From a virus, in the UHGV virus genome UHGV-0391791: a stretch of 38,277 nt of DNA; one strand, 5' to 3'. The position numbers and the translations under genes are program-made. How positions within the stretch are numbered: the first letter of the stretch is position 1; each line of letters starts with the position of its first letter. Positions 3,071-36,173 of the stretch are shown in pieces. The notes under the pieces were generated by a model. That model was not told where the DNA came from and made no database searches. It saw only the letters and a program-made list of their open reading frames with translations.

Positions 3071-5580
3071 TGCGGAATATCTCCGGAGAATCTCTGACGC
3101 TTCTGTGTCAGATCAAGAACAACAGGAGAACCATCATCCTTCAGCAGATATCCAGTCCCAAGTTTTACCAGGTACTGACTATCGCCGTAACTTTGCAAAC
3201 CATACTGACCAGGCGGTGTTTTTATCCCTGTGCCGACAACTTGTTCATTCCAAGCCTGATTAACCTGCTTATCGAATTGCTCTGCAGACATTCCCCACGG
3301 CAAAAGGACATTCCCCATTCCGTTATAGTCATGCACGCCACCTGTAGCTACGTTAACAGCCTGTTTCCAGATATCATTGTCAATTTCGCCTGATACCACG
3401 CCTTTTTTCGCCATCACACCAGCGTAATAGTCCTTTGCGATCTCGTATGCCATTGATGCCCCCTGAGCATCACCAGCAAATGCATCCTTCACCATGTCAG
3501 AAAACTCAAGGCGAAGATCAGCATCTTTAGGCATCGGAATACCTTTCGCATCATCAGTACCTTTACGAGCCGCCGCGCCAGCAAGAATTGTCTGCGCAGC
3601 GGTTTCAGGTGACACGGAAACATCCGGATTAAACCAGTTTTTTTCTGCCAAAATACCACCAGGTTTATCCATCAGTATCCCGGCAACGGCAGCAGATGGA
3701 GCGTTGGCACTGATCTGCTGTAGTGCTGACATATACACCTGCCCACCACCAGTGCTTTGCCTGATGGTATCGAGATATGCTGCCTGTTGGGAAACGGGCG
3801 CATCACGAAAGAAAACACCGATCTGATTGGCCTCGTCTTTGGAAAAGAACGTCAGTGGAGTGCCATATGACTTGGCAAGGTCACTGACCTGAGCGGCACG
3901 CAAGGCAACGCTCTGTCCAAAGTTATCCTTATTGCTCATGTCGATAGGCTTTGCCTGTCCGGCGGCAAGAGAGAACTGCACAGGATCCGACTGCCGCTGC
4001 TTTATCACCTGATTTGCAGCCGAAACAACGTTGTCATAAAGAGCTGCGCGTGCCGCATACCCCTCCCCTGTCTCACCAGTATCCGGGCGTAATTGCTCAA
4101 CATATGCTGTAATGCTGCTTGTCGGCATGTTGCGGAAAGAGCCTATATACTGTCCGGCGATCTGCGTATTTCTGAACTCGGTATATCGCAGGTTTCCTTC
4201 TCTGACGCCATAAGCTGCAATAAAATCAGCCTCACCAGGTGGATTAGGAAATTCAACGCCACGCATATACGCAGCCGTCGCATCGCGAACCTGGCTGTCA
4301 ATCATCGTTTTATATTCAGCCTGCTGCTGCCGACGCAGTTGATCCGCCTGTCGCATATAACTTGCCTGCGCCTCAGGAGATGCCGCATCGAATGCTGCAT
4401 TACCGGTATAGCGTTTGGTGTTGGTTGGAATTGTTGATAAACCAAGTGCTGCACTGACACCAGCAGTTAACTGCTGATCACTGTATGGCTGGCTACCGTT
4501 CTCATGATGGATAATGGCTGCACAAAGCGCCTTCAGGGTATCAGGATTTGATGCATCGAGAGGCTCATCAGCAGAAACGCCAAGTTGTTCGCACACTGCT
4601 TTGATATACGACATAGTGTCATTTTTATCAGTAGGCGGTGCCCAGCGATTAATTATCTCGCTGACTGTATCAATACCCTGCCGCTGATACGACATCAGGT
4701 TCCGCCCTAATGCACGAATCCCGTGTTCAGGTGTTTCGAATTTAGCAAATCGACCATCATCACCGGTCTGGCCTACCCACGGATTAGTTTTGCTGTATTC
4801 GAGATTTCCTGGGTTATTGTTGCGTATGCCACGGGCACGCTCGGAAGAGTCACTATCTGCTACAGCACGGCGAGCTCCAGCAGCAGTATCACTTAACTCG
4901 CCATTACTTTGGATGAATGCGGTCGCATTGTTTGCCGACCACTGGGACAATGCAGCATCAGCAACCTTCTCTTTAAACTCGATTTTCTTGGCCTGGATTT
5001 GCTCGTCACTCCAGCCATGTGCAATGCCGTAATCCTCAATTTGCTGGAAAGTTTGCTTATTAGCCAATACGTATGCGGCGTTGTCGCCATACAATGCTGC
5101 GGCATTTTTACCATTGTTCAGCAGCGCAGCCTGAAACTGGCCTTCTTCGTAGGCATTTATTTGCCCTATCTCGTGCCGCCCTGCCTGCGTAGTGAACTGA
5201 ATGCGCTGCTGCTGCGCCTGCTGCATGAAAGCATTACGAGCCTGTTCATCCGGCAGCGACATAGCCAGTTGTTCGACCTGAGCATCAAACTGCTGCGTAT
5301 ACTCCTGACCTTTTCCAATAGCATTTTTCCCTTTCAGGTTAAGCAATCCTGTTTCAGGATTATTCAGCAGATCGCTGCTTATCTGGCTTAAGCTAAGAGA
5401 AGCATCCTGAGCCATAGCAACATTCGCACGCTGTTTTGCCTGCGCAATAATACCTGCATATTGCTCTGCAACATCGCCAAGTACATCACCGACATTTAGT
5501 GTCTGAAACGATGAGAATCCCTGCGTCGAAATCCCTCTGCTCTGAACCTGACGGCCCGATGTTGTTGGTACAACTGGCAT
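3067..5580 (-). CDS. Large internal virion protein (837 aa), in the position of T7 gp15-type core proteins; possible peptidoglycan-degrading segment
   Basis: Track ORF; size and position in the structural operon; central segment GIRNNNPGNLEYSKTNPWVGQ recalled as muralytic-like (unverified). Confidence 0.55.
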   Translation of the reverse strand: MPVVPTTSGRQVQSRGISTQGFSSFQTLNVGDVLGDVAEQYAGIIAQAKQRANVAMAQDASLSLSQISSDLLNNPETGLLNLKGKNAIGKGQEYTQQFDAQVEQLAMSLPDEQARNAFMQQAQQQRIQFTTQAGRHEIGQINAYEEGQFQAALLNNGKNAAALYGDNAAYVLANKQTFQQIEDYGIAHGWSDEQIQAKKIEFKEKVADAALSQWSANNATAFIQSNGELSDTAAGARRAVADSDSSERARGIRNNNPGNLEYSKTNPWVGQTGDDGRFAKFETPEHGIRALGRNLMSYQRQGIDTVSEIINRWAPPTDKNDTMSYIKAVCEQLGVSADEPLDASNPDTLKALCAAIIHHENGSQPYSDQQLTAGVSAALGLSTIPTNTKRYTGNAAFDAASPEAQASYMRQADQLRRQQQAEYKTMIDSQVRDATAAYMRGVEFPNPPGEADFIAAYGVREGNLRYTEFRNTQIAGQYIGSFRNMPTSSITAYVEQLRPDTGETGEGYAARAALYDNVVSAANQVIKQRQSDPVQFSLAAGQAKPIDMSNKDNFGQSVALRAAQVSDLAKSYGTPLTFFSKDEANQIGVFFRDAPVSQQAAYLDTIRQSTGGGQVYMSALQQISANAPSAAVAGILMDKPGGILAEKNWFNPDVSVSPETAAQTILAGAAARKGTDDAKGIPMPKDADLRLEFSDMVKDAFAGDAQGASMAYEIAKDYYAGVMAKKGVVSGEIDNDIWKQAVNVATGGVHDYNGMGNVLLPWGMSAEQFDKQVNQAWNEQVVGTGIKTPPGQYGLQSYGDSQYLVKLGTGYLLKDDGSPVVLDLTQKRQRFSGDIPQ

Positions 5581-14863: not shown

Positions 14864-14878
14864 TTACCTTTCAGGTAA
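14864..14878. promoter_or_regulatory. Operator-like palindrome TTACCTTTCAGGTAA, with a perfect TTGACA -35 hexamer at 14842..14847
   Basis: Perfect TTACC-N5-GGTAA dyad; identical 15-mer recurs at 34071..34085; intergenic. Confidence 0.55.
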
Positions 14879-15200: not shown

Positions 15201-15277
15201 GTGGCATTAGCTCAGTTGGACAGAGCAACCGCCTTCTAAGCGGTTGGTCGCAGGTTCGAATCCTGCATGCCACGCCA
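15201..15277 (+). tRNA. tRNA-Arg, anticodon UCU (reads AGA), phage-encoded, argU-like
   Basis: Manual cloverleaf: 7-bp acceptor stem GTGGCAT/ATGCCAC, D-arm GCTC/GAGC, anticodon stem ACCGC/GCGGT with loop CTTCTAA, T-arm GCAGG-TTCGAAT-CCTGC, discriminator G plus encoded CCA; 77 nt. Confidence 0.85.
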
Positions 15278-17419: not shown

Positions 17420-18012
17420 TGATTACCATCCTGACGTTCTTTGAGTCGCTTCCTGGCTGCTGCTATGCGATCAGCAATTGTCACATTCACATTAACATCC
17501 AGACGTTCTTTGAACGCGTTGACATCAACATGCTTACCAATCAGCTCAAGGTTCTTCACCTTGTCAGGCCATTTAATTTTTTTGAGGATTGTCTCTATCG
17601 AATCCTCGTTCATGTTCATGATGGTCGATGACAGATCAAAGCCACTAAGCGTAGTGCGCCAGATTTTCGGCCACTCACGGATTGGTTTAAGGCTCCCATC
17701 GTCGTTGAGGATATCGATCACGTCCATCTGGTCGATCTCCACCAGGCGCATGAGAACGTAATCAGCACTGACGCGCATTCGTTTGTTGCGCTCCTCCATC
17801 AACTCGGCAATCCGTTTTTGAATGCGTTCATCGCGCATCATGACACTGGCTTTAACTGCCGCTGTATTTGGGGAGAATCCTGCGTTAATCGCTGCCTGAG
17901 TCTGGTTTTCAGGCGTTTTGATGTATGACTGGCAATAAGCCTCCTGCATTGCTGTTAGTGGCTTAAATTGCGTTGATTTGCGTTTATAGGTTTTAGGTTC
18001 AGCAGGCATCAT
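17416..18012 (-). CDS. Terminase small subunit (start placed at MMPAEP..., about 198 aa; track start 18090 judged too far upstream)
   Basis: Track ORF 17416..18090; its first 26 codons span tandem DNA repeats and a terminator hairpin, so the internal Met-Met at 18012 is preferred; overlaps terL start. Confidence 0.6.
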   Translation of the reverse strand: MMPAEPKTYKRKSTQFKPLTAMQEAYCQSYIKTPENQTQAAINAGFSPNTAAVKASVMMRDERIQKRIAELMEERNKRMRVSADYVLMRLVEIDQMDVIDILNDDGSLKPIREWPKIWRTTLSGFDLSSTIMNMNEDSIETILKKIKWPDKVKNLELIGKHVDVNAFKERLDVNVNVTIADRIAAARKRLKERQDGNQ

Positions 18013-21117: not shown

Positions 21118-21132
21118 TTACCTCTAAGGTAA
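21118..21132. promoter_or_regulatory. Operator-like palindrome TTACCTCTAAGGTAA overlapping the RBS of the 20767..21114 gene
   Basis: Perfect TTACC-N5-GGTAA dyad 4 nt upstream of the start codon. Confidence 0.55.
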
Positions 21133-21179: not shown

Positions 21180-21194
21180 TTACCCAACAGGTAA
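21180..21194. promoter_or_regulatory. Operator-like palindrome TTACCCAACAGGTAA
   Basis: Perfect dyad; an AT-rich promoter-like stretch lies between it and site 21118..21132. Confidence 0.55.
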
Positions 21195-23195: not shown

Positions 23196-23426
23196 TCATG
23201 AGTAGAAGAAGTATGCCAGTTCTGCTTTTGAGCGCAGCCATTGTCTTGTTTTACAGGCTTTAAAAAGCCCATTCATCAATACTTTACCTGGCATTTTGCG
23301 CTTACCTGTTAAGTGAGTCTGGATATAGTGACTCGTCGTTCCGGCTTCCTGTGCGAAGGCTTCACGCTCATCCGGAGTAAGTGCAAGCCAGTGCTTTTTG
23401 AAATCGAAATGTCCGTTATCGCTCAT
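23196..23426 (-). CDS. Cro-like small HTH regulator (76 aa)
   Basis: Track ORF; divergent from the repressor gene, pointing toward the O and P genes. Confidence 0.5.
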   Translation of the reverse strand: MSDNGHFDFKKHWLALTPDEREAFAQEAGTTSHYIQTHLTGKRKMPGKVLMNGLFKACKTRQWLRSKAELAYFFYS

Positions 23427-23462: not shown

Positions 23463-23477
23463 TCACCCATAAGGTAA
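23463..23477. promoter_or_regulatory. Operator site (variant TCACCCATAAGGTAA) in the spacer of a leftward PR-like promoter
   Basis: Minus strand TTGTTA-17 nt-TATTAT with the dyad inside the spacer. Confidence 0.45.
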
Positions 23478-23493
23478 CAAAAATCAAGGATAG

Positions 23494-23508
23494 TTACCTA
23501 TGGGGTGC
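23494..23508. promoter_or_regulatory. Operator site (variant TTACCTATGGGGTGC)
   Basis: Perfect left half, degenerate right half; lies between the two other sites of the divergent region. Confidence 0.3.
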
Positions 23509-23510
23509 AT

Positions 23511-23525
23511 TTACCTGTTGGGTAA
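23511..23525. promoter_or_regulatory. Operator site TTACCTGTTGGGTAA (perfect) in the repressor/Cro divergent region
   Basis: Perfect TTACC-N5-GGTAA dyad. Confidence 0.6.
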
Positions 23526-23580: not shown

Positions 23581-24165
23581 ATGAAAAGTATCCAGGACGT
23601 CCGCAGGCAAAATCTCAACGACTTGATCGACCGTGAATTCAATGGTGTTCAGACGCGGATGGCAGAAAAACTTGGAACTCAGGCAAATCTGGTAAACCGC
23701 TGGGCTCTTGGCAAGAAGGTTATCGGCGACCAGGTTGCGCGAAAAATTGAAGCTGCCGCCAATAAACCCCGTAACTGGCTTGATATCGATCGCTCGCTTT
23801 CTCAGGAAGGTTTTCAGCCTGTCGGCCCAAGCGACATTGGTCAGCTGGCGGCTCACAACCTGGAACGCTGGATGAGCGAAAGCCGCGACCTTTCAACACA
23901 GGGAAAACTTCACCGCGCATCCGGCGTCGCCCAGGTGACAATCAGCCGCCTGTTAAACAATGAGGTCAGCGTTTCCATTTCCACCCTGGAGAATGTTGCA
24001 TCCGCATTCGGGCGTCACGGCTATGAATTACTGATTCACCCGCACGACCCTGCGACCATCAACTATGACCGCTCGCGCTACGCATTGTTACCCGAAACCG
24101 AGAAAGCAAAGATCGAAAGTTACATTGAATTTGTCATCAACCAGAACGAAAAAAACAAACAATAA
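23581..24165 (+). CDS. Phage repressor (194 aa) with two HTH-like segments and no recognisable LexA/S24-type autocleavage domain
   Basis: Track ORF; HTH-like segments MAEKLGTQANLVNRWALGKK and GVAQVTISRLLNNEVSVSISTLENVASAFG; no Ala-Gly/Ser...Lys peptidase module by eye. Confidence 0.6.
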   Translation: MKSIQDVRRQNLNDLIDREFNGVQTRMAEKLGTQANLVNRWALGKKVIGDQVARKIEAAANKPRNWLDIDRSLSQEGFQPVGPSDIGQLAAHNLERWMSESRDLSTQGKLHRASGVAQVTISRLLNNEVSVSISTLENVASAFGRHGYELLIHPHDPATINYDRSRYALLPETEKAKIESYIEFVINQNEKNKQ

Positions 24166-24222: not shown

Positions 24223-24237
24223 TTACCTTAAGGGTAA
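24223..24237. promoter_or_regulatory. Operator site TTACCTTAAGGGTAA upstream of a rightward PL-like promoter
   Basis: Perfect dyad; promoter TTGACA at 24257..24262. Confidence 0.6.
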
Positions 24238-31503: not shown

Positions 31504-33966
31504 TCAATTCCCTGTTAATTGCAAAACTTGCTCTTCCAGCTTTTTAACCCTGCGTCTCATCATCGCAGATTCCAGAATCAGAGCCTCTTCATAACGGATA
31601 CCGTAACATTCACCAGCCTCGACGGCTTCGCGTACCAGAACCTTTGTCTGTATAAGTGGGTAAACTCCTGCAGAATGCTCTTCTTCCGTCACATCCCTGT
31701 ATTCTGCCGGGGTCTCATTCCACTTGTCATAACAGATAAATGCCAGTCGTGACACATCTATGCCTTCATTCTGAAATACACTGATAACATGCTGCGCAAC
31801 TGCACCAAAGTGCCATCTTGCTCCGTCTTTACCTTTCACTTCGATCCTGTCAAGGTACTGGTATGAAACCCATTCCACTCTTTCCCATGCGTCCAGTATT
31901 TTCTCATCAATAACCTCTGGAGCAGTCTTGAAACGCGCATCGGACAGCACCGTAAACGCTGACTGGGTAAATCCCCCCGACCATGCACGACCAGCCAACC
32001 CAAGAGAATAAGTATTCGTTGTCGATGGTGTCATGGCTGAATCAGAAAACTGTATATATTCTGAATTTCCAGTAGATATTCGAATATTTCCATTTATTAG
32101 CGACATAGTGCCTTTAGTATTATCACTATTGAATAATTTCAATTGCGAACTTATACCGCCTCCCACAGCCAGAGATACATCGCCTTCAGCAAGCATTCTG
32201 AATTTATCTGCAGAAACAAGCGTCTGGTTAGCAAGGTTAAAATATTTAACCCACCATTCAAAACGCCCTGACATAGTCCCAACGTACTGACCAAGCGCAG
32301 GGACGTGAACAACATTGCTATTTGTAGTGCCGTCTATACTGGAAATACCAGTCACCGCTGATGCAGAACTCAGAATATTATTTCTGTCACCCGGATGTTT
32401 AATTTCAACAAAGTTCCTGATACACCCTTCCTCGAAGGTAACCACGCCGGAAGAACTATACATGGGGAATATTGACGCATAATTACTGCGTGCAGCATCT
32501 AAGAAACGAATGGTTGTAGATGTCTGCAGATCTCCTGATTCATTTTTCCCATCACACCCAGTCATTAGAATATTACTGGCAATATTATTATTTCCCTGAA
32601 CGGTGACTCCGTGCGCCTGCTTTGCGTCCGATTCAGAGTAATCAACCAGCACATTCGAAATCAGGTTACCAGTCCCCTTGCCAACAACTACTGCGGCGTA
32701 TTTTGGGTTGTTAGCCATTACACTGCTAATGATATTATTCGTTGGGGCAGTTTCCGTCTCAGTTCCATTGTAAACAACGTGCTGACACTCTTCACCAATA
32801 ACATTGCTGACAATGTTATATTTTGCTGCTGTTTTAAGTTCCACTGCACCAAACTGAGGATAATTTCTGGCTATCACACCATCAATTAGCGTATTTTGCG
32901 ATGAATCAAAAAGCACACAACCTGCTTTTTTATTATTTGCGAACCCTAAATACTCTCCTCTTATATCTCTAACAATGTAACCTGACGGAATACCATTATT
33001 CGGATAAGCGATCAAGCTAAATCCTGTTCCTCGCGTATTTGTAAATCTGATATTTTTAACCGATACATCATGGCCACCTGAAAATGACACCTGGTGTCCC
33101 TGCACACTATCATCTGATTTATTTCCCATAATTGTTAGCGTACTAAGCATGCCACCATCGGGCATGTTAAAAACCAGATGATTACCATCTCTGTCATACT
33201 GTTTTATCGTTCCCCCACCTGTTCCGTACAAGCCACAACGTGAAAGAGAAACTAAAGATGTATTGAATACCCCTTCCGGAACAAAAACACTGCTAAACGA
33301 ATGTAATGATTTTGTAAAAGCATCCTTGTTATCATTTAAGATTCCATTTTGAGCTCCAAAATCCTTAATGCTGACACCATCACGCATCTTATCCTGGAAC
33401 GTTCTGTATACCGCTCCAGAACCATACTGAATAAACCAACCAAAACCACCAATAACTCCGGCGATTGCAGCATCGACATAATTACGCATTGAGCGATTAT
33501 TTACAGCGTCCTGCTCAAGTGATGGATCGGCAAGGTTAGATATTCTGTTTTGCTTTGCATCGTAATATTTTGCAAGCAAAGATGGTTTCATCAATGCACG
33601 TCTGAACCACCCAAAACATCGCTGGATCAGCATCGTCAGGTAGTCAAATGCATCCTCATGAACTTCGGGGAAAAATTTTCCCTGATTGCGAAGATCAGTC
33701 TCCTGCACCACATCAAGCACACGCTCTATCGTGATTCGCCAGCCAGCAGCAAGCGGCGACGGAAGAACCACTGCACCGCCACTATAAGTTCCCGCCCCTG
33801 TTACCGTATAACCAGCATCCAGCACTAGTTTTGTAACGTTACCGTTAAGGTCAGACACCTGAACAACCAGGTCGGATTTTTTGAAAATACGGAAGGTATA
33901 CGGAAATGATGTCGTAACGCCGTTACCTGTGTATTCGTTGTGGTCAACTTCGGTTGAGACCGTCAT
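31504..33966 (-). CDS. Tailspike / tail fibre (820 aa) with C-terminal intramolecular chaperone (peptidase S74-like) domain
   Basis: Track ORF; Asn/Gly/Ser-rich central region; C-terminal block ...SDARFKTAPEVIDEKILDAWERVEWVSYQYLD...GARWHFGAVAQHV typical of self-cleaving chaperone domains. Confidence 0.8.
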   Translation of the reverse strand: MTVSTEVDHNEYTGNGVTTSFPYTFRIFKKSDLVVQVSDLNGNVTKLVLDAGYTVTGAGTYSGGAVVLPSPLAAGWRITIERVLDVVQETDLRNQGKFFPEVHEDAFDYLTMLIQRCFGWFRRALMKPSLLAKYYDAKQNRISNLADPSLEQDAVNNRSMRNYVDAAIAGVIGGFGWFIQYGSGAVYRTFQDKMRDGVSIKDFGAQNGILNDNKDAFTKSLHSFSSVFVPEGVFNTSLVSLSRCGLYGTGGGTIKQYDRDGNHLVFNMPDGGMLSTLTIMGNKSDDSVQGHQVSFSGGHDVSVKNIRFTNTRGTGFSLIAYPNNGIPSGYIVRDIRGEYLGFANNKKAGCVLFDSSQNTLIDGVIARNYPQFGAVELKTAAKYNIVSNVIGEECQHVVYNGTETETAPTNNIISSVMANNPKYAAVVVGKGTGNLISNVLVDYSESDAKQAHGVTVQGNNNIASNILMTGCDGKNESGDLQTSTTIRFLDAARSNYASIFPMYSSSGVVTFEEGCIRNFVEIKHPGDRNNILSSASAVTGISSIDGTTNSNVVHVPALGQYVGTMSGRFEWWVKYFNLANQTLVSADKFRMLAEGDVSLAVGGGISSQLKLFNSDNTKGTMSLINGNIRISTGNSEYIQFSDSAMTPSTTNTYSLGLAGRAWSGGFTQSAFTVLSDARFKTAPEVIDEKILDAWERVEWVSYQYLDRIEVKGKDGARWHFGAVAQHVISVFQNEGIDVSRLAFICYDKWNETPAEYRDVTEEEHSAGVYPLIQTKVLVREAVEAGECYGIRYEEALILESAMMRRRVKKLEEQVLQLTGN

Positions 33967-34070
33967 GTTAAATCTCCAGATAGTCGCAGCACCCGTTGCG
34001 CCGCATATCTGGTTATTCTATTACCCAAAAAACCATATATGGATAGAAAGACTGTGAATATGAATAGATA

Positions 34071-34085
34071 TTACCTTTCAGGTAA
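34071..34085. promoter_or_regulatory. Operator site TTACCTTTCAGGTAA (identical to 14864..14878) in the tailspike / antirepressor divergent region
   Basis: Perfect dyad. Confidence 0.55.
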
Positions 34086-34122
34086 TTTGCAAAACGTGCT
34101 GGATAGCAAACAAATTATTTGC

Positions 34123-34142
34123 TACTGTATAAATATACAGTT
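34123..34142. promoter_or_regulatory. LexA (SOS) box TACTGTATAAATATACAGTT
   Basis: CTGT-N8-ACAG with AT-rich spacer, close match to the E. coli consensus TACTGTATATATATACAGTA; about 20 bp upstream of the first antirepressor-module ORF. Confidence 0.65.
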
Positions 34143-34162
34143 ATTGCATGGAGAAGATTAAG

Positions 34163-34420
34163 ATGCAGCAGTATCACTATCCACTGGAAGAGGGATTTAC
34201 CGAAAGGATTCACACGCCGGGAGGCGTCAGGTCACTGGTGGAGGGATCGCACTTGATGAAATTACTCCGGGATCTCGATAAGGATGGATTTAATGTCGAT
34301 GGCCCACTTGCCGAACTGACTGCACTGATTAACTACGTCACCAGCTCACAGATGTCTATGCAGGATCTGCAAACACATCTCGACTATTGTGCCGAACAAT
34401 TACGAAAACAAACCAGATAA
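34163..34420 (+). CDS. Small protein homologous to the C-terminal domain of the downstream antirepressor (about 85 aa from MQQYHYP); candidate SOS-induced antirepressor
   Basis: In-frame part of track ORF 34148..34420; SD GGAGAAG; IHTPGGVRSLVEGSHLMKLLRDLDKDGFNVDGPLAELTALINY aligns with [43 protein letters not shown] of 34738..35394. Confidence 0.5.
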   Translation: MQQYHYPLEEGFTERIHTPGGVRSLVEGSHLMKLLRDLDKDGFNVDGPLAELTALINYVTSSQMSMQDLQTHLDYCAEQLRKQTR

Positions 34421-34451
34421 GGTTTGAAATTACCAAATGGAGTGCTTATAT

Positions 34452-34466
34452 TTACCTTTGCGGTAA
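34452..34466. promoter_or_regulatory. Operator site TTACCTTTGCGGTAA in the loop of an inverted repeat GGAGTGC/GCACTCC (34439..34482)
   Basis: Perfect dyad; flanking 7-bp inverted repeat read directly. Confidence 0.5.
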
Positions 34467-34557
34467 ATTTACATCGCACTCCTCTTGTGCCATAGTAATC
34501 GGGCACTGGCAAAATCCAGTGCCGGGATTGGTCTCCCGGATTACTAAGTGGCGCATA

Positions 34558-34579
34558 CCACGCCAGACGTGGTTTTTTT
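34558..34579 (+). terminator. Terminator-like hairpin plus T7 run inside the leader between the two antirepressor-module genes
   Basis: CCACG-ccaga-CGTGG followed by TTTTTTT; preceded by overlapping alternative hairpins at 34501..34538. Confidence 0.45.
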
Positions 34580-34737
34580 ATGCGTATAGCACAGTCATGC
34601 CAGAATTATGGTGGGCTGAATGGGGGTCCGAAAGGACGCCGGTACCACTTAGGCCGGTAAGACCAACTCCGTTCAGTTCACCACCATCTGATTGGTCTCA
34701 GCGGTGGTGATGTAATTCGCTAAGTGGAGACGCCATC

Positions 34738-35394
34738 ATGAACGCTCAACTCATCCCCGTATTCAACGGCACTATATCTAACGAAACAGCCCTACTTTGT
34801 AATGCCCGCGATCTGCACGCTTTTTTAGGTGTTAAAAAGGTGTTTGCAGCATGGATTACAAATCGCATATCAGAATACGAATTCATTGAAAATCAAGACT
34901 ATATTTTGCTTTCCAATTTGGGAAAGCAAACATCTGGTAGAGGCGGCCACAACCGCAAAGAGTACCACCTCACCCTTGATACAGCCAAAGAGCTGGCGAT
35001 GGTCGAGCGTAACGAAAAAGGTCGCCAGGTGCGACGCTACTTCATTGAATGCGAGAAACGTTTAAGACAACAAGAAACAAAAGTGGAGAAGGTCTTGTCA
35101 GGCTTCATGCCCGCCATTATGGAGGCGATCAAGCTGGAAGACAAAAAAGAATACAGTGCCCCACTGAAGCCCGGCTACCGCAGCCTGATTCACTCGCCGT
35201 CTGGTGTTCTCGGCCTGACGGAGAACTCACTGCTGATGAATCTGCTGAACCAGTTACAGGACGACGGGCACGACGTATCGGGCGCGGCGGCGGAGCTGAC
35301 CACCATGTTCTGCTACATCGTTGGTGTGAGCAAATGCCTGCGTGATATCCAGACGCACGCGGAGTACATCAACGACAAGGCAGGGTTCTTCTGA
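34738..35394 (+). CDS. Antirepressor (218 aa), AntA/AntB-type N-terminal domain plus C-terminal domain shared with 34163..34420
   Basis: Track ORF; N-terminal segment ...[30 protein letters not shown]...[42 protein letters not shown] recalled as antirepressor-type; SD GGAGA. Confidence 0.65.
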
Positions 35395-35466
35395 CGGGCG
35401 GCGGCACAGGGATGTGCCTTTAAATAATTCTGTACAGATTGCAGACTGGGGGTGAATAGCGTACTA

Positions 35467-35481
35467 TTACCTCAAGGGTAA
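35467..35481. promoter_or_regulatory. Operator site TTACCTCAAGGGTAA upstream of the 35541 gene
   Basis: Perfect dyad about 60 bp upstream of the start codon. Confidence 0.55.
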
Positions 35482-35540: not shown

Positions 35541-36173
35541 ATGAGAACAAATACAACAAGAAAAGCGATGCCATACATTATCCCAGAAGCAGATTTCGAT
35601 AGAAAACTGAACATGTCTGAGAAGAACACTAGTCACACCGAAAGCTACTTAGCGAAAGGTGTGGTTGATTTCGTTCTTCCGGGATTCACAACACCTTATG
35701 GTTATCGCCTTGTAAAATCTTGTAATGGCGATCATTACAGAATGATTACTACCAGCGATACTCCAGAAACGGTGTATGCGGTTAAGTTAATCTTTCGGGA
35801 AGATATCGTCGAAGCCAAAAGAACATGTACGCAGATCATGGTATGGCGTACGCCTAATGTTATTCATGACCGTGCTGTTCATGGTTTGCCTCAGATTTTT
35901 TTTCAGTTCTTCCTAGAGCAATATGCGATCGTTGTATCTGATGAGCAACAAACAATCGATGGGAGAAGATTCTGGGAAAGAATGATTTCTTGGGCTATAA
36001 ACACCCCAGGATATAATGTATACGTTTCAGATGGCTCTGAAGAAGATAGACCTCTTAGCTTCATGACATCATGGGATGATTTCTATAGCCAGTGGGCTGA
36101 TTTCTGTTGGGGCAGTGATAAAGATGTGCATACCCACAGACTACTGGTTATAAGCAAAGATAAACTGCATTAA
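35541..36173 (+). CDS. Orphan hypothetical protein (210 aa), moron with its own operator and terminator
   Basis: Track ORF; strong SD GGAGGA 5 nt upstream; no motif recognised; surrounding DNA is AT-rich by eye. Confidence 0.5.
   Translation: MRTNTTRKAMPYIIPEADFDRKLNMSEKNTSHTESYLAKGVVDFVLPGFTTPYGYRLVKSCNGDHYRMITTSDTPETVYAVKLIFREDIVEAKRTCTQIMVWRTPNVIHDRAVHGLPQIFFQFFLEQYAIVVSDEQQTIDGRRFWERMISWAINTPGYNVYVSDGSEEDRPLSFMTSWDDFYSQWADFCWGSDKDVHTHRLLVISKDKLH

What the first reader, a model, noticed from the sequence alone, without database searches (positions are those of the whole stretch)
34071..35394. SOS-controlled antirepressor module paired with a non-cleavable repressor
A near-consensus LexA box (TACTGTATAAATATACAGTT, 34123..34142) sits about 20 bp upstream of a two-gene rightward operon. 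The first gene (34163..34420) is a standalone copy of the C-terminal domain of the second (34738..35394), which has an antirepressor-type N-terminal domain. The candidate repressor (23581..24165) shows two HTH segments and no LexA-like autocleavage domain. This matches the known strategy in which DNA damage derepresses a LexA-controlled antirepressor instead of cleaving the repressor (coliphage 186 Tum, Gifsy-type prophages). Unusual here is that a phage operator dyad (34071..34085) lies in the same control region, implying dual LexA plus phage-repressor control, and that the antirepressor domain is duplicated as a separate small protein.
Basis: partly seen in the sequence, partly recalled or inferred. 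Interest (0 to 1): 0.7.

Follow-up and report, generated by a model that had tools for sequence, protein, structure and literature searches.

The report
Known SOS antirepressor plus RNA-gated second antirepressor

Summary
The window is a Uetakevirus (phiV10/epsilon15-like) E. coli prophage.

- **ant (34163..34420):** 89% identical to Ant of Salmonella phage SPC32H. The 23581..24165 protein is the SPC32H Rep homologue (42%). Their complex is solved (PDB 5D50).
- **LexA box (34123..34142):** 18/20 to consensus and invariant in its CTGT/ACAG halves in relatives. It is the site where SPC32N differs from SPC32H by one base.
- **Not a simple two-gene operon.** The 317-bp gap holds:
  - a Rep operator (34452..34466) abutting a promoter;
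  - an isrK/a1b1 RNA with terminator (34503..34579);
  - a C4 antisense RNA (34604..34688);
  - C4 targets b'/a', with a' covering the Ant2 ribosome-binding site.
- **Covariation:** a and b elements co-vary three ways across seven cassette types.
- **Ant2 (34738..35394):** a swappable N-terminal domain fused to a conserved Ant-like C-terminal domain. That domain occurs only in phages carrying this Rep.
- **Dyad 34071..34085:** one of ten perfect Rep operators. It may control the divergent tailspike promoter, ant, or both.

Verdict: a new member of known kinds (SPC32H-type antirepression plus a P1 immI-like cassette). Interest is modest.

The parts
23581..24165 (+). Rep, the prophage repressor (194 aa). 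Two HTH regions, no S24 autocleavage domain. Homologue of SPC32H Rep.
   Evidence: Pfam HTH_3 at 106-147, weak YdaS HTH at 21-61, no Peptidase_S24. PDB 5d50_A E 4e-42 and 5d4z_A E 4e-20. 42% identity over the full length to SPC32H rep. 100% identical to the phiV10 and ZX5 repressors.
23463..23525 (.). Tripartite operator region between the cro-like gene (23196..23426, -) and rep. Dyads at 23463, 23494 and 23511.
   Evidence: SPC32H has three equivalent TTACC-N5-GGTAA/GGTGA sites at the same place.
34065..34092 (-). Putative leftward (tailspike/lysis) promoter: -35 TTGCAA (34087..34092), 16-nt spacer holding the dyad, -10 TATCTA (complement of 34065..34070).
   Evidence: Read from the sequence. 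Same layout as TTGATA-a-dyad-TAAAAT at 21180. Not picked up by the consensus scan. Inferred.
34071..34085 (.). Rep operator dyad TTACCTTTCAGGTAA.
   Evidence: One of 10 perfect copies against 0.03 expected. Conserved, with central variation, in relatives including SPC32H, Tyrion and Klebsiella phages.
34123..34142 (.). LexA (SOS) box TACTGTATAAATATACAGTT overlapping a possible -10 TATAAA (34128..34133; -35 TAGCAA at 34104..34109, 18-nt spacer).
   Evidence: 18/20 to consensus. CTGT and ACAG invariant and spacer variable in every one of the 82 loci with an intact upstream region (all but 3 truncated or rearranged contigs). Same box in SPC32H. SPC32N differs by C->A in the ACAG half.
34163..34420 (+). 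ant: small antirepressor (85 aa), orthologue of SPC32H Ant. SD GGAG at 34150..34153.
   Evidence: 89% identity to SPC32H Ant, E 2e-57. Family profile against PDB 5d50_E E 5.7e-50. phrog_450. Co-occurs with Rep in 35 of 35 phage records. A 1-nt indel in relatives puts the upstream ATG 34148 out of frame, so 34163 is the start.
34452..34466 (.). Second Rep operator dyad TTACCTTTGCGGTAA. It overlaps the -10 of TTGAAA-17-TATATT (34424..34452) and lies 1 nt upstream of the -35 of the isrK promoter.
   Evidence: An equivalent dyad is present in Tyrion and Klebsiella phages.
34468..34496 (+). Putative isrK/C4/ant2 promoter: TTTACA-17-(TG)CATAGT. The predicted start falls near the 5' end of isrK at 34503.
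   Evidence: Conserved in Tyrion and Klebsiella. The transcription start is inferred, not mapped.
34503..34579 (+). isrK-type RNA (a1/b1 decoy of C4): b1 TTGGTCT at 34528..34534, a1 CTAAGTGG at 34544..34551, intrinsic terminator at 34557..34573 plus a T run.
   Evidence: Rfam RF01394 67.7 bits (gathering 50). Overlapping RF03163 c4-a1b1 39.9 bits, below its gathering score of 46.7. Terminator. Element coordinates.
34604..34688 (+). C4 antisense RNA: a2 CCACTTAG at 34645..34652 (hairpin loop), b2 AGACCAA at 34660..34666.
   Evidence: Rfam RF01695 61.2 bits (gathering 45). Coordinates.
34692..34729 (+). C4 targets on the ant2 leader: b' TTGGTCT at 34692..34698; a' CTAAGTGG at 34720..34727, overlapping the ant2 SD GGAG at 34726..34729.
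   Evidence: Exact complements of b2 and a2. Three-way covariation of a1/a2/a' and b1/b2/b' in 7 cassette types across 75 loci.
34738..35394 (+). Ant2 (218 aa): AntA-type N-terminal domain (residues 22-92) plus Ant-like C-terminal domain (about residues 137-213).
   Evidence: Pfam AntA E 4e-26. C-terminal domain against 5d50_E E 8e-14. phrog_377 and phrog_450. N-terminal domain swapped and C-terminal domain kept at 91-99% nt in relatives. The C-terminal domain occurs only in Rep-bearing phages.
35439..35481 (+). Third local Rep-controlled promoter: TTGCAG-17-TACTAT, with dyad TTACCTCAAGGGTAA (35467..35481) overlapping the -10. Upstream of the 35541..36173 gene.
   Evidence: Promoter read by eye; inferred.

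Best explanation
The locus is the antirepression (induction) region of a Uetakevirus prophage. It consists of two adjacent units of known kinds.

**Unit 1 (34104..34420): the SPC32H-type SOS trigger.**
- In a lysogen, host LexA sits on the box that overlaps the ant promoter.
- DNA damage removes LexA and the 85-aa Ant is made.
- Ant binds the non-cleavable repressor Rep (23581..24165) and strips it from its TTACC-N5-GGTAA operators. These operators are spread over at least ten promoter regions of the prophage.

**Unit 2 (34424..35394): a P1 immI-like cassette inserted downstream of ant.**
- A promoter abutted by a Rep operator transcribes three things in order: an isrK-type RNA carrying decoy sites a1/b1 and a leaky terminator, then a C4 antisense RNA, then ant2.
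- C4 loops a2/b2 pair with b'/a' on the ant2 leader. Because a' covers the Shine-Dalgarno sequence, Ant2 translation is blocked while matching C4 is present.
- Ant2 is a fusion of an exchangeable N-terminal domain (AntA here, Bro-N or others elsewhere) to a conserved paralogue of Ant. That paralogue is most likely the part that engages Rep.
- Ant2 therefore acts as a second antirepressor, gated by Rep and by RNA. It could be a positive-feedback latch once Rep starts to fall. It could also be an anti-immunity weapon on superinfection of lysogens whose C4 specificity differs, as between P1 and P7.

**Shown here by sequence and comparison:** homology, operator and LexA-box conservation, RNA family matches, a/b covariation, domain modularity and co-occurrence.

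**Inferred:** all binding events, transcription start sites, read-through and the biological role of Ant2.
For: **Identity of the phage.** The region is 98% identical to phage phiv142-3, about 90% to phiV10, and 100% to E. coli chromosomes.

**Ant and Rep.**
- PDB 5D50 holds 'Repressor' and 'Anti-repressor protein' chains that match Rep (E 4e-42) and the gene-1 family profile (E 5.7e-50).
- 5D4Z/5D50 are RepSPC32H and Ant of Kim et al. 2016 (PMC9986798 and PMC9638917).
- GenBank KC911856 annotates ant and rep at the syntenic places.
- Ant is 89% identical to SPC32H Ant and Rep 42%.
- Every one of the 35 phage records with an Ant homologue also has a Rep homologue.

**LexA box.**
- 18/20 to consensus.
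- The CTGT/ACAG halves are invariant in every one of the 82 loci with an intact upstream region (all but 3 truncated or rearranged contigs), while the spacer varies.
- SPC32H and SPC32N differ in this 5.2-kb locus at two bases only. One is C->A in the ACAG half-site.

**Operators.** Ten perfect dyads against 0.03 expected. They sit at the rep/cro region and at promoter-like sites.

**RNA cassette.**
- Rfam isrK and C4 score above their gathering thresholds here and in all cassette variants tested.
- a and b elements are exact complements and co-vary three ways. There are 4 a-types, 3 b-types and 7 combinations in 75 loci.
- a' overlaps the ant2 SD in every type.

**Ant2.**
- Modularity: ant is 98-100% and the Ant2 C-terminal domain 91-99% conserved, while isrK, C4 and the Ant2 N-terminal domain are swapped.
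- One relative (L075) has a P22-type mnt/arc/sar cassette driving an Ant with the same C-terminal domain.
- The C-terminal domain is found in only 32 of 50,697 phage records, all of them Rep-bearing.
- Experimental support: ZX5 ORF4 has a Bro-N N-terminal domain, a C-terminal domain 93% identical to the window's, and a Rep identical to the window's. Its over-expression lowered lysogen titre from 1e9 to 1e6 (PMC9782041).
Against: - No binding, transcript or induction data exist for this prophage. The promoters are weak consensus matches and their start sites are unmapped.
- Rep is only 42% identical to SPC32H Rep while Ant is 89% identical. Cognate recognition is therefore assumed, not shown.
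- The Ant-like C-terminal domain of Ant2 is about 40% identical to Ant. It could be an oligomerisation module rather than a Rep-binding one.
- An AlphaFold model of Ant2 was too poor to test the fold (pLDDT 41.5).
- The primary SPC32H papers could not be read here. The statements that SPC32H Rep is not RecA-cleaved and that LexA represses ant rest on my recollection of Kim & Ryu 2013, supported indirectly.
- Relatives carry toxin-antitoxin or other genes inserted between ant and isrK. Some lack the cassette entirely. Any functional coupling between the two units is therefore dispensable.
Confidence: 0.78

Rival explanations
1. One LexA-repressed promoter drives a true two-gene operon. The long AntA-type protein is the antirepressor proper and the small protein is an accessory duplicate of its C-terminal domain. 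The upstream dyad adds direct phage-repressor control of that operon.
For: - Both genes are on the + strand, and no +-strand terminator lies between the ant stop codon and isrK. LexA-promoter transcripts probably do enter the cassette.
- The dyad lies 1 nt from a TTGCAA hexamer that could be a rightward -35. This is the same geometry as at the isrK promoter.
Against: - The small protein is the orthologue of the characterised SPC32H Ant. In SPC32H/epsilon15 it stands alone and is followed by a terminator.
- Several E. coli relatives also lack the second gene.
- Between the genes lie a promoter, an operator, the isrK terminator and C4.
- Other genes are inserted between the two in relatives.
Confidence: 0.08
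2. The Ant-like C-terminal domain of Ant2 is only a tetramerisation module and does not bind Rep. Ant2 acts through its N-terminal AntA/Bro-N domain on other targets, such as repressors of unrelated co-resident prophages. Alternatively it co-assembles with Ant and modulates it, possibly as an antagonist.
For: - SPC32H Ant is a tetramer (PMC9638917).
- The Ant2 C-terminal domain is only about 40% identical to Ant.
- The N-terminal domains belong to families widespread in antirepressors of unrelated phages.
- Cross-talk of antirepressors is documented in Salmonella (PMC3121763).
Against: - The C-terminal domain is confined to phages carrying this Rep family.
- It is retained while the N-terminal domain and even the whole regulatory cassette are swapped.
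- Nineteen residues are invariant between Ant homologues and the Ant2 C-terminal domain.
- ZX5 ORF4, which has a different N-terminal domain, the same C-terminal domain and the same Rep, reduces lysogeny.
Confidence: 0.12
3. The cassette works as described for Gifsy-1 isrK-orf45-anrP. Short IsrK acts in trans on read-through mRNA to switch on translation, giving an SOS-independent, stress-responsive (stationary phase, low Mg2+) route to induction. It is not an immI-type superinfection or anti-immunity device.
For: - Rfam isrK match with a leaky-terminator architecture.
- In Gifsy-1, IsrK activates AnrP translation and prophage induction, and a processed RNA (STnc1160) lies where C4 lies here (PMC4825925).
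Against: - There is no conserved orf45-like leader ORF. The 37-codon frame in the window lacks an SD and is not kept in Tyrion.
- The a' target overlaps the ant2 SD directly.
- Seven a/b specificity combinations among phages with an identical Rep are what diversifying selection for immunity specificity predicts.
- The two readings are not mutually exclusive.
Confidence: 0.2
4. The LexA-like box is a chance AT-rich palindrome with no regulatory role.
For: CTGT-N8-ACAG occurs at two other places in the window.
Against: - 18/20 match to consensus.
- The half-sites are invariant while the spacer varies, in E. coli, Salmonella and Enterobacter relatives.
- One of the only two differences between SPC32H and SPC32N in the 5.2-kb locus is in this box.
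Confidence: 0.02

Closest known systems
Salmonella phage SPC32H Rep/Ant antirepression system (Kim & Ryu, J Virol 2013; Kim et al., PNAS 2016; PDB 5D4Z, 5D50)
   Same: - Same phage genus.
- Same gene order: tailspike, then divergent intergenic region with dyad and LexA box, then ant.
- Ant 89% identical and Rep homologous over its full length.
- Same TTACC-N5-GGTAA operator half-sites.
- No S24 cleavage domain in Rep.

   Different: - Rep is only 42% identical.
- In SPC32H, ant is followed directly by a terminator and convergent structural genes. There is no isrK, C4 or Ant2.
- The window adds a second antirepressor that carries an Ant-like domain.
Phage P1/P7 immI operon (C1-controlled promoter, c4 antisense RNA with a1/b1 and a'/b' sites, icd, ant)
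   Same: - A promoter guarded by an operator of the primary repressor.
- An upstream a1/b1 element, a C4 RNA (Rfam RF01695), and downstream a'/b' targets at a ribosome-binding site in front of an antirepressor gene.
- Specificity variants among phages that share the primary repressor.

   Different: - No icd-like leader ORF. The a' target overlaps the SD of the antirepressor gene itself.
- The a1/b1 element carries its own terminator (isrK form).
- Ant2 carries a C-terminal domain specific to the Uetakevirus Rep.
- The host phage is a podovirus that also has a LexA-controlled Ant.
Gifsy-1 isrK-orf45-anrP-isrJ locus (Hershko-Shalev et al. 2016, PMC4825925)
   Same: - An isrK RNA with a read-through terminator upstream of an antirepressor-like gene.
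- A processed RNA in the C4 position.
- The host prophage also has a separate LexA-controlled small antirepressor (GfoA; PMC3121763).
   Different: - No conserved orf45 equivalent.
- The small LexA-controlled antirepressor is adjacent and is homologous to the C-terminal domain of the large one.
- Homology of AnrP to Ant2 was not tested.
Coliphage 186 Tum and Gifsy GfoA/GfhA/GftA (LexA-controlled small antirepressors)
   Same: The logic is the same: a non-cleavable repressor is inactivated by a small protein whose gene lies outside the immunity region under direct LexA control (PMC3121763).
   Different: No sequence relationship was detected. Pfam gave no DinI/Tum-type hit on the 85-aa protein at E <= 0.01. 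The protein belongs to phrog_450, the SPC32H Ant family.
Phage P22 immI (mnt, arc, sar RNA, ant)
   Same: One close relative (L075) has replaced the C4 cassette by a P22-type cassette: RHH Arc- and Mnt-like ORFs plus Rfam sar RNA at 44.8 bits. It drives an Ant that ends in the same C-terminal domain.
   Different: Not present in the window itself.

Membership tests
SPC32H-type Ant/Rep antirepression system | Small (~86 aa) Ant protein homologous to SPC32H Ant (PDB 5D50 chain E) | tested here: met
   89% identity, E 2e-57. Family profile against 5d50_E E 5.7e-50.
SPC32H-type Ant/Rep antirepression system | Rep homologous to SPC32H Rep (N-terminal HTH domain plus C-terminal Ant-binding/tetramerisation domain) with no LexA-like S24 autocleavage domain | tested here: met
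   5d50_A E 4e-42 over residues 1-190; 5d4z_A (C-terminal domain) E 4e-20. 42% identity. No Peptidase_S24 in Pfam.
SPC32H-type Ant/Rep antirepression system | LexA box at the ant promoter | tested here: met
   18/20 to consensus at 34123..34142. Conserved in relatives and in SPC32H. The SPC32N variant has C->A in the box.
SPC32H-type Ant/Rep antirepression system | Synteny: ant divergent from the tailspike gene, far from the rep/cro immunity region | tested here: met
   Rep lies about 10 kb away.
SPC32H-type Ant/Rep antirepression system | LexA binds the box; Ant binds Rep and releases it from DNA; Rep is not cleaved on SOS induction | not testable with these tools
   Needs EMSA, pull-down and western blots. 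Known for SPC32H only from papers that could not be opened here.
P1/P7 immI-type C4 antisense control of an antirepressor | C4 RNA matching the covariance model above its gathering score | tested here: met
   RF01695 61.2 bits against 45. 61-79 bits in relatives.
P1/P7 immI-type C4 antisense control of an antirepressor | Upstream a1/b1 element complementary to C4 a2/b2 | tested here: met
   isrK RF01394 67.7 bits against 50. c4-a1b1 RF03163 only 39.9 bits against 46.7. Exact 8-nt and 7-nt complements.
P1/P7 immI-type C4 antisense control of an antirepressor | Downstream a'/b' targets at a ribosome-binding site, co-varying with C4 | tested here: met
   b' at 34692..34698; a' at 34720..34727 overlapping SD 34726..34729. 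Three-way covariation in 7 types across 75 loci.
P1/P7 immI-type C4 antisense control of an antirepressor | Leader ORF (icd) whose RBS is the C4 target and to which ant translation is coupled | tested here: not met
   Only a non-conserved 37-codon frame without an SD. It is absent in Tyrion. The target overlaps the ant2 SD itself.
P1/P7 immI-type C4 antisense control of an antirepressor | Operon promoter controlled by an operator of the primary repressor | tested here: inconclusive
   Dyad 34452..34466 abuts the -35 at 34468 and overlaps the -10 of an upstream promoter-like site. Binding and start sites were not determined.
Gifsy-1 isrK-orf45-anrP locus | isrK RNA with a read-through terminator upstream of an antirepressor gene | tested here: met
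Gifsy-1 isrK-orf45-anrP locus | orf45 leader peptide required for anrP translation | tested here: not met
   No conserved ORF.
Coliphage 186 Tum / Gifsy GfoA family | Sequence homology to Tum (DinI-like domain) or to GfoA | tested here: not met
   For Tum: no such Pfam hit at E <= 0.01. The family is phrog_450/5D50. GfoA was not compared directly.

The most novel reading that the evidence does not exclude
E. coli, Enterobacter and Klebsiella Uetakeviruses run a two-tier antirepression circuit built around one Rep-binding domain.
- A LexA-gated free Ant acts as the trigger.
- A Rep-repressed, C4-RNA-locked Ant2 carries a paralogous copy of that domain. It acts as a positive-feedback latch and as an anti-immunity weapon.
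- The isrK/C4/a'b' cassette is a hypervariable second immunity determinant. At least 7 combinatorial antisense specificities occur among phages with a 100% identical Rep, and the cassette is interchangeable with a P22-type sar cassette.
- LexA-promoter transcripts that read from ant into isrK may supply extra a1/b1 decoy. That would titrate C4, so that SOS unlocks both tiers.
Probability: 0.3. Interest if true: 0.55.

Novelty: new member of a known kind. Interest (0 to 1): 0.3.

Why it matters
- **The core mechanism is already established.** LexA-controlled Ant inactivating a non-cleavable Rep is known biochemically and structurally for SPC32H. This window mainly shows that the same switch operates in a very common E. 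coli prophage family: matches in 868 of 5,426 complete genomes, 79 of them covering at least 80% of the region.
- **Annotation gaps.** In that family the small ant gene is annotated only as 'hypothetical protein', and the RNAs are not annotated or are mis-called as ORFs.
- **The modestly new element** is the juxtaposition with a C4/isrK-gated second antirepressor that re-uses the Ant domain, together with clean three-way covariation defining several antisense specificities.
- **If Ant2 really targets Rep,** these phages would be a compact natural system for studying how SOS-dependent and RNA-gated antirepression are layered. They would also show how immI-type heteroimmunity diversifies among phages that share a repressor.

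Tried and rejected
1. **AlphaFold2 of Ant2** with a 17-sequence alignment gave mean pLDDT 41.5. This is too poor for a fold search, so the claim that the C-terminal domain resembles Ant rests on sequence only.
2. **Primary papers could not be opened:** the SPC32H papers (PMC3807360; PMC4983836 / doi 10.1073/pnas.1602618113) and the epsilon15 genome paper (PMC2698709). I used secondary citations and a direct comparison of the SPC32H and SPC32N sequences.
3. **A first dyad search with a 6-nt spacer** (TTACC-N6-GGTAA) found nothing meaningful. The correct spacer is 5 nt.
4. **Unconstrained RNA duplex folding** of C4 against its flanks gave long uninformative duplexes. Exact-complement searching located the a and b elements.
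5. **The search for related loci returned only near-identical E. coli loci**. Diversity came from GenBank phage records instead.
6. **My first ORF-based typing of Ant2** mis-called starts and left 36 loci untyped. It was replaced by the C4-anchored analysis.
7. **PADLOC** found no defence-system match for Ant, Ant2, the 210-aa protein or the 137-aa protein.
8. **A leader ORF equivalent to icd/orf45** was considered and rejected.
9. **Membership in the Tum/GfoA family** was considered and rejected.


Full report
**Context.** The window is an almost complete E. coli prophage of the phiV10/epsilon15 group (genus Uetakevirus).
- The segment 33900..35600 is 98% identical to phage phiv142-3 and about 90% identical to phiV10.
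- It is 100% identical to the chromosomes of E. coli AR_0086 and another strain.
- Some part of it matches 868 of 5,426 complete E. coli genomes.
- The module lies between the tailspike gene (31504..33966, minus strand; Peptidase_S74 and beta-helix) and a group of small genes followed by xis and int at the right end.

**Checking the observation.**
- *LexA box.* TACTGTATAAATATACAGTT occupies 34123..34142, matches 18 of 20 consensus positions and ends 20 bp before the ATG at 34163. CTGT-N8-ACAG occurs three times in the window (0.5 expected), but the other two copies have GC-rich spacers.
- *Shared domain.* The 85-aa product of 34163..34420 aligns with residues 137-210 of the 218-aa product of 34738..35394 (42% identity, E 6e-16).
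- *Second protein.* It has a Pfam AntA domain at residues 22-92.
- *Repressor candidate.* The 23581..24165 protein has two HTH regions and no S24 peptidase domain.
- *Dyad.* The dyad at 34071..34085 is one of ten perfect TTACC-N5-GGTAA sites (0.03 expected).
- *Start codon.* In many relatives a 1-nt deletion puts the upstream ATG at 34148 out of frame, so 34163 is the true start.

The 317 bp between the two genes is densely functional. Rfam finds two RNAs above their gathering scores:
- an isrK RNA at 34503..34579 (67.7 bits against 50);
- a C4 antisense RNA at 34604..34688 (61.2 bits against 45).

The isrK match ends in the only +-strand intrinsic terminator of the region (34557..34573). Upstream lie a second perfect dyad (34452..34466) and two promoter-like sites. 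TTGAAA-17-TATATT (34424..34452) has a -10 that overlaps the dyad. TTTACA-17-TG-CATAGT (34468..34496) has a -35 starting 1 nt after the dyad, and its predicted start coincides with the 5' end of isrK. 'Two-gene operon' is therefore not an adequate description.

**Identity of gene 1 and the repressor.**
- A profile of the gene-1 family hits PDB 5D50 chain E, 'Anti-repressor protein', at E 5.7e-50.
- The repressor hits 5D50 chain A, 'Repressor', at E 4e-42, and 5D4Z at E 4e-20.
- Two papers identify these entries as Rep and Ant of Salmonella phage SPC32H (Kim et al. 2016). They describe a tetrameric Ant that binds two Rep dimers and breaks the DNA-binding tetramer (PMC9986798; PMC9638917).
- GenBank KC911856 annotates ant and rep at the syntenic positions.
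- The window's Ant is 89% identical to SPC32H Ant. Rep is 42% identical over its whole length.
- In the phage database, all 35 records with an Ant homologue also carry a Rep homologue.
- SPC32H has the same upstream layout: dyad TTACCTTACAGGTAA, then the box TACTGTATGTTTATACAGT, then ant. It also has the same operator half-sites between rep and the divergent gene.

From memory of the abstract of Kim & Ryu (J Virol 2013; cited but not readable here): SPC32H Rep is not cleaved on SOS induction, ant is repressed by LexA, and the clear-plaque sibling SPC32N carries a point mutation in the LexA site. I could verify the last point directly. In the 5.2-kb locus the two genomes differ at two bases, and one is C->A in the ACAG half of the box. 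Across the 82 loci, every one with an intact upstream region (all but 3 truncated or rearranged contigs) keeps the CTGT and ACAG halves, while the AT-rich spacer varies (ATAAATAT, ATAAACAT, ATATTTAT, GTATTTAT). Enterobacter phage Tyrion keeps a perfect box, and Klebsiella relatives keep one with a single half-site mismatch. The core of the finding is thus a rediscovery of a published, structurally solved system in a congeneric phage.

**The operator dyads.** The ten perfect and several near-perfect sites sit at promoter-like sequences across the prophage:
- three in the rep/cro intergenic region;
- a pair 62 bp apart flanking TTGACA-17-CATAAT at 24223 and 24285;
- another pair 62 bp apart at 21118 and 21180;
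- sites at 18012/18030 and at 14864;
- the three in this locus.

This dispersed arrangement recalls P1 C1 operators. The dyad at 34071 lies exactly in the 16-nt spacer of a leftward promoter-like site: -35 TTGCAA at 34087..34092 and -10 TATCTA on the complement of 34065..34070. That layout is identical to TTGATA-a-dyad-TAAAAT at 21180, so it would control the tailspike and lysis genes. However, TTGCAA is its own reverse complement. Read rightward, the dyad sits 1 nt upstream of a -35, the geometry seen at the isrK promoter. A Rep tetramer bridging the 34071 and 34452 dyads is also conceivable.

**The RNA cassette.** Exact-complement searching defined the elements:

| Element | Sequence | Location |
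|---|---|---|
| C4 a2 | CCACTTAG | 34645..34652, hairpin loop |
| C4 b2 | AGACCAA | 34660..34666 |
| isrK b1 | TTGGTCT | 34528..34534 |
| isrK a1 | CTAAGTGG | 34544..34551 |
| leader b' | TTGGTCT | 34692..34698 |
| leader a' | CTAAGTGG | 34720..34727 |

The a' site overlaps the ant2 Shine-Dalgarno GGAG (34726..34729), which lies 9 nt before the ATG. The order (a2 then b2 in C4; b then a in the targets) fits antiparallel pairing. This is the P1/P7 immI design. Rfam also holds a 'c4-a1b1' family, which overlaps isrK here at 39.9 bits, below its threshold. Both motifs were described by Weinberg et al. 2010 (PMC2864571).

In 75 related loci the elements fall into four a-types (CTAAGTGG, CTAAAAGG, CTAGTAG, CTACAAAGG) and three b-types (TTGGTCT, TTGGCGT, TTTGCAC), in seven combinations. 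All three copies change together. The only deviation is a G·U wobble in a1 of the CTACAAAGG type. This three-way compensatory variation is strong evidence that the antisense system is functional. No conserved leader ORF equivalent to P1 icd or Gifsy-1 orf45 exists. C4 would therefore occlude the ant2 ribosome-binding site directly.

**Ant2 is modular.**
- Among 80 close relatives, ant is 98-100% and the Ant2 C-terminal domain 91-99% identical at the DNA level. isrK (80-100%), C4 (76-100%) and the Ant2 N-terminal domain are exchanged as a block.
- N-terminal domains include AntA (the window), several Bro-N types and an unrelated 168-aa form.
- One relative (L075) has an inverted P22-type immI cassette instead: Arc- and Mnt-like RHH ORFs plus Rfam sar RNA. 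It drives a 312-aa Ant that ends in the same C-terminal domain.
- Tyrion and Klebsiella prophage-derived phages keep the whole composite: LexA box, ant, operator, isrK, C4 and Ant2 with the C-terminal domain.
- The Salmonella epsilon15/SPC32H group and a few E. coli loci have ant alone.
- A search of 1.84 billion representative proteins found only 59 clusters with the Ant domain. Some are free-standing (about 85 aa) and some have it at the C-terminus of proteins of 130-319 aa.
- In 50,697 phage records, the Ant2 C-terminal domain occurs in 32. All belong to the Rep-bearing set. By contrast, isrK/C4 modules occur in many unrelated phages such as APSE, Stx phages, phiP27 and Yersinia phages.
- The simplest reading is that the conserved C-terminal domain is the Rep-directed part of Ant2.
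- Experimental support comes from phage vB_EcoP_ZX5. Its repressor is identical to the window's. Its ORF4 'anti-repressor' has a Bro-N N-terminal domain and a C-terminal domain 93% identical to the window's. Over-expressing ORF4 lowered lysogen titres from 1e9 to 1e6 and lowered repressor transcription by 75% (PMC9782041). That paper did not recognise the small ant gene or the RNAs.

**Mechanism proposed.** *Shown by sequence and comparison:* the parts, their homology, their conservation and their covariation. *Inferred:*
1. LexA represses ant.
2. On DNA damage, Ant accumulates and removes Rep from its operators, as in SPC32H.
3. The isrK-C4-ant2 promoter is Rep-repressed, and any ant2 mRNA is translationally blocked by C4.
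4. When Rep falls, or when the phage enters a cell lacking matching C4, Ant2 is made and reinforces or achieves Rep inactivation through its Ant-like domain.

Rep is 100% identical among the E. coli phages while a/b types differ. The cassette therefore probably confers P1/P7-style heteroimmunity. No +-strand terminator separates ant from isrK, so LexA-promoter transcripts probably add a1/b1 decoy RNA. This could couple the two tiers. The coupling cannot be essential, because other genes are inserted there in relatives: YafO, a HicAB-like pair and a 242-aa protein. The Gifsy-1 work shows that an isrK locus can trigger prophage induction through its antirepressor AnrP, and that Gifsy-1 also has a separate LexA-controlled small antirepressor (PMC4825925; PMC3121763). 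The two-antirepressor logic is thus not without precedent.

**Comparison and novelty.**
- For unit 1, every testable defining feature of the SPC32H-type system is met.
- For unit 2, the C4, a1/b1 and a'/b' features of P1 immI are met. The icd-type leader ORF is not, so it works like immI but is a variant.
- It is not a member of the Tum or GfoA families. No homology was found; the resemblance is functional only.
- I rate the finding as a new member of known kinds. The one modestly new point is the fusion of an Ant paralogue to exchangeable N-terminal domains under exchangeable antisense cassettes, next to the LexA-controlled original.

**Limits.**
- No experiment on this prophage exists.
- Promoters are weak consensus matches.
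- The AlphaFold model of Ant2 failed.
- The primary SPC32H papers were not readable here.

Noticed in passing
window 14864, 18012/18030, 21118/21180, 23463/23494/23511, 24223/24285, 29367, 34071, 34452, 35467: Rep operator dyads (TTACC-N5-GGTAA) are dispersed over the whole prophage at promoter-like sites, in the manner of P1 C1 operators. Two pairs (21118/21180 and 24223/24285) are each exactly 62 bp apart, which suggests cooperative or looped binding by the tetrameric Rep.
   Followed up: partly
window 23581..24165 and 34163..34420, compared with L084 and L083 (SPC32H): Ant is 89% identical between the E. coli prophage and SPC32H, but Rep is only 42% identical, and the operator half-sites are the same. 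Either Ant recognises a small conserved surface of divergent Reps (cross-reactivity), or the ant region was exchanged recently.
   Followed up: partly
L016 3281..4009; L086 3846..4749; E. coli hits H44-H48: The gap between ant and isrK is an insertion hot spot in relatives. Inserts include a 242-aa membrane/zinc-ribbon-like protein (minus strand), a HicB-like plus small-ORF pair in a Klebsiella phage, and a YafO-family toxin gene in several E. coli genomes.
   Followed up: no
L075 3333..5063: One close relative carries an inverted P22-type immI cassette in place of isrK/C4: Mnt-like and Arc-like RHH ORFs, Rfam sar RNA at 4273..4340, and a 312-aa Ant. Its Ant still ends in the Uetakevirus-specific Ant-like domain.
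   Followed up: partly
L001 (phiV10) 3333..4012: In phiV10 the Ant2 homologue is split (p23 of 194 aa plus p22 of 30 aa). tblastn needs two pieces to cover the C-terminal domain. This suggests a frameshift that truncates the Ant-like domain in the type phage.
   Followed up: no
window 35541..36173 (+), promoter/operator 35439..35481: A 210-aa protein of unknown function (phrog_1349; no Pfam or PADLOC hit) has its own promoter-like site with a perfect Rep operator over the -10. It is present in only some relatives.
   Followed up: partly
isrK a1 sites in L006, L016, L038, L046, L079: In the CTACAAAGG specificity type, the decoy a1 reads CTACAGAGG. It therefore pairs with C4 through a G·U wobble, whereas the real target a' pairs perfectly. 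This may be a built-in affinity difference between decoy and target.
   Followed up: no
window 15201..15274 (+): A tRNA gene (Rfam tRNA, 73.3 bits) lies between the late and early regions, downstream of a TTGACA promoter-like site whose -10 region overlaps the dyad at 14864.
   Followed up: no
L079 6137..6221 (-): A second C4 RNA match (61.2 bits, the window's type) lies on the opposite strand about 2.6 kb downstream of the first. This relative may therefore carry two C4 specificities.
   Followed up: no
GenBank annotations under window 34440..34745 homologues: The isrK/C4 region is annotated as protein-coding in several phage records ('ash family protein' in ZX5, 'similar to hypothetical protein SF0880' in phiV10). 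Only APSE-7 annotates the RNAs and the a'/b' sites.
   Followed up: no
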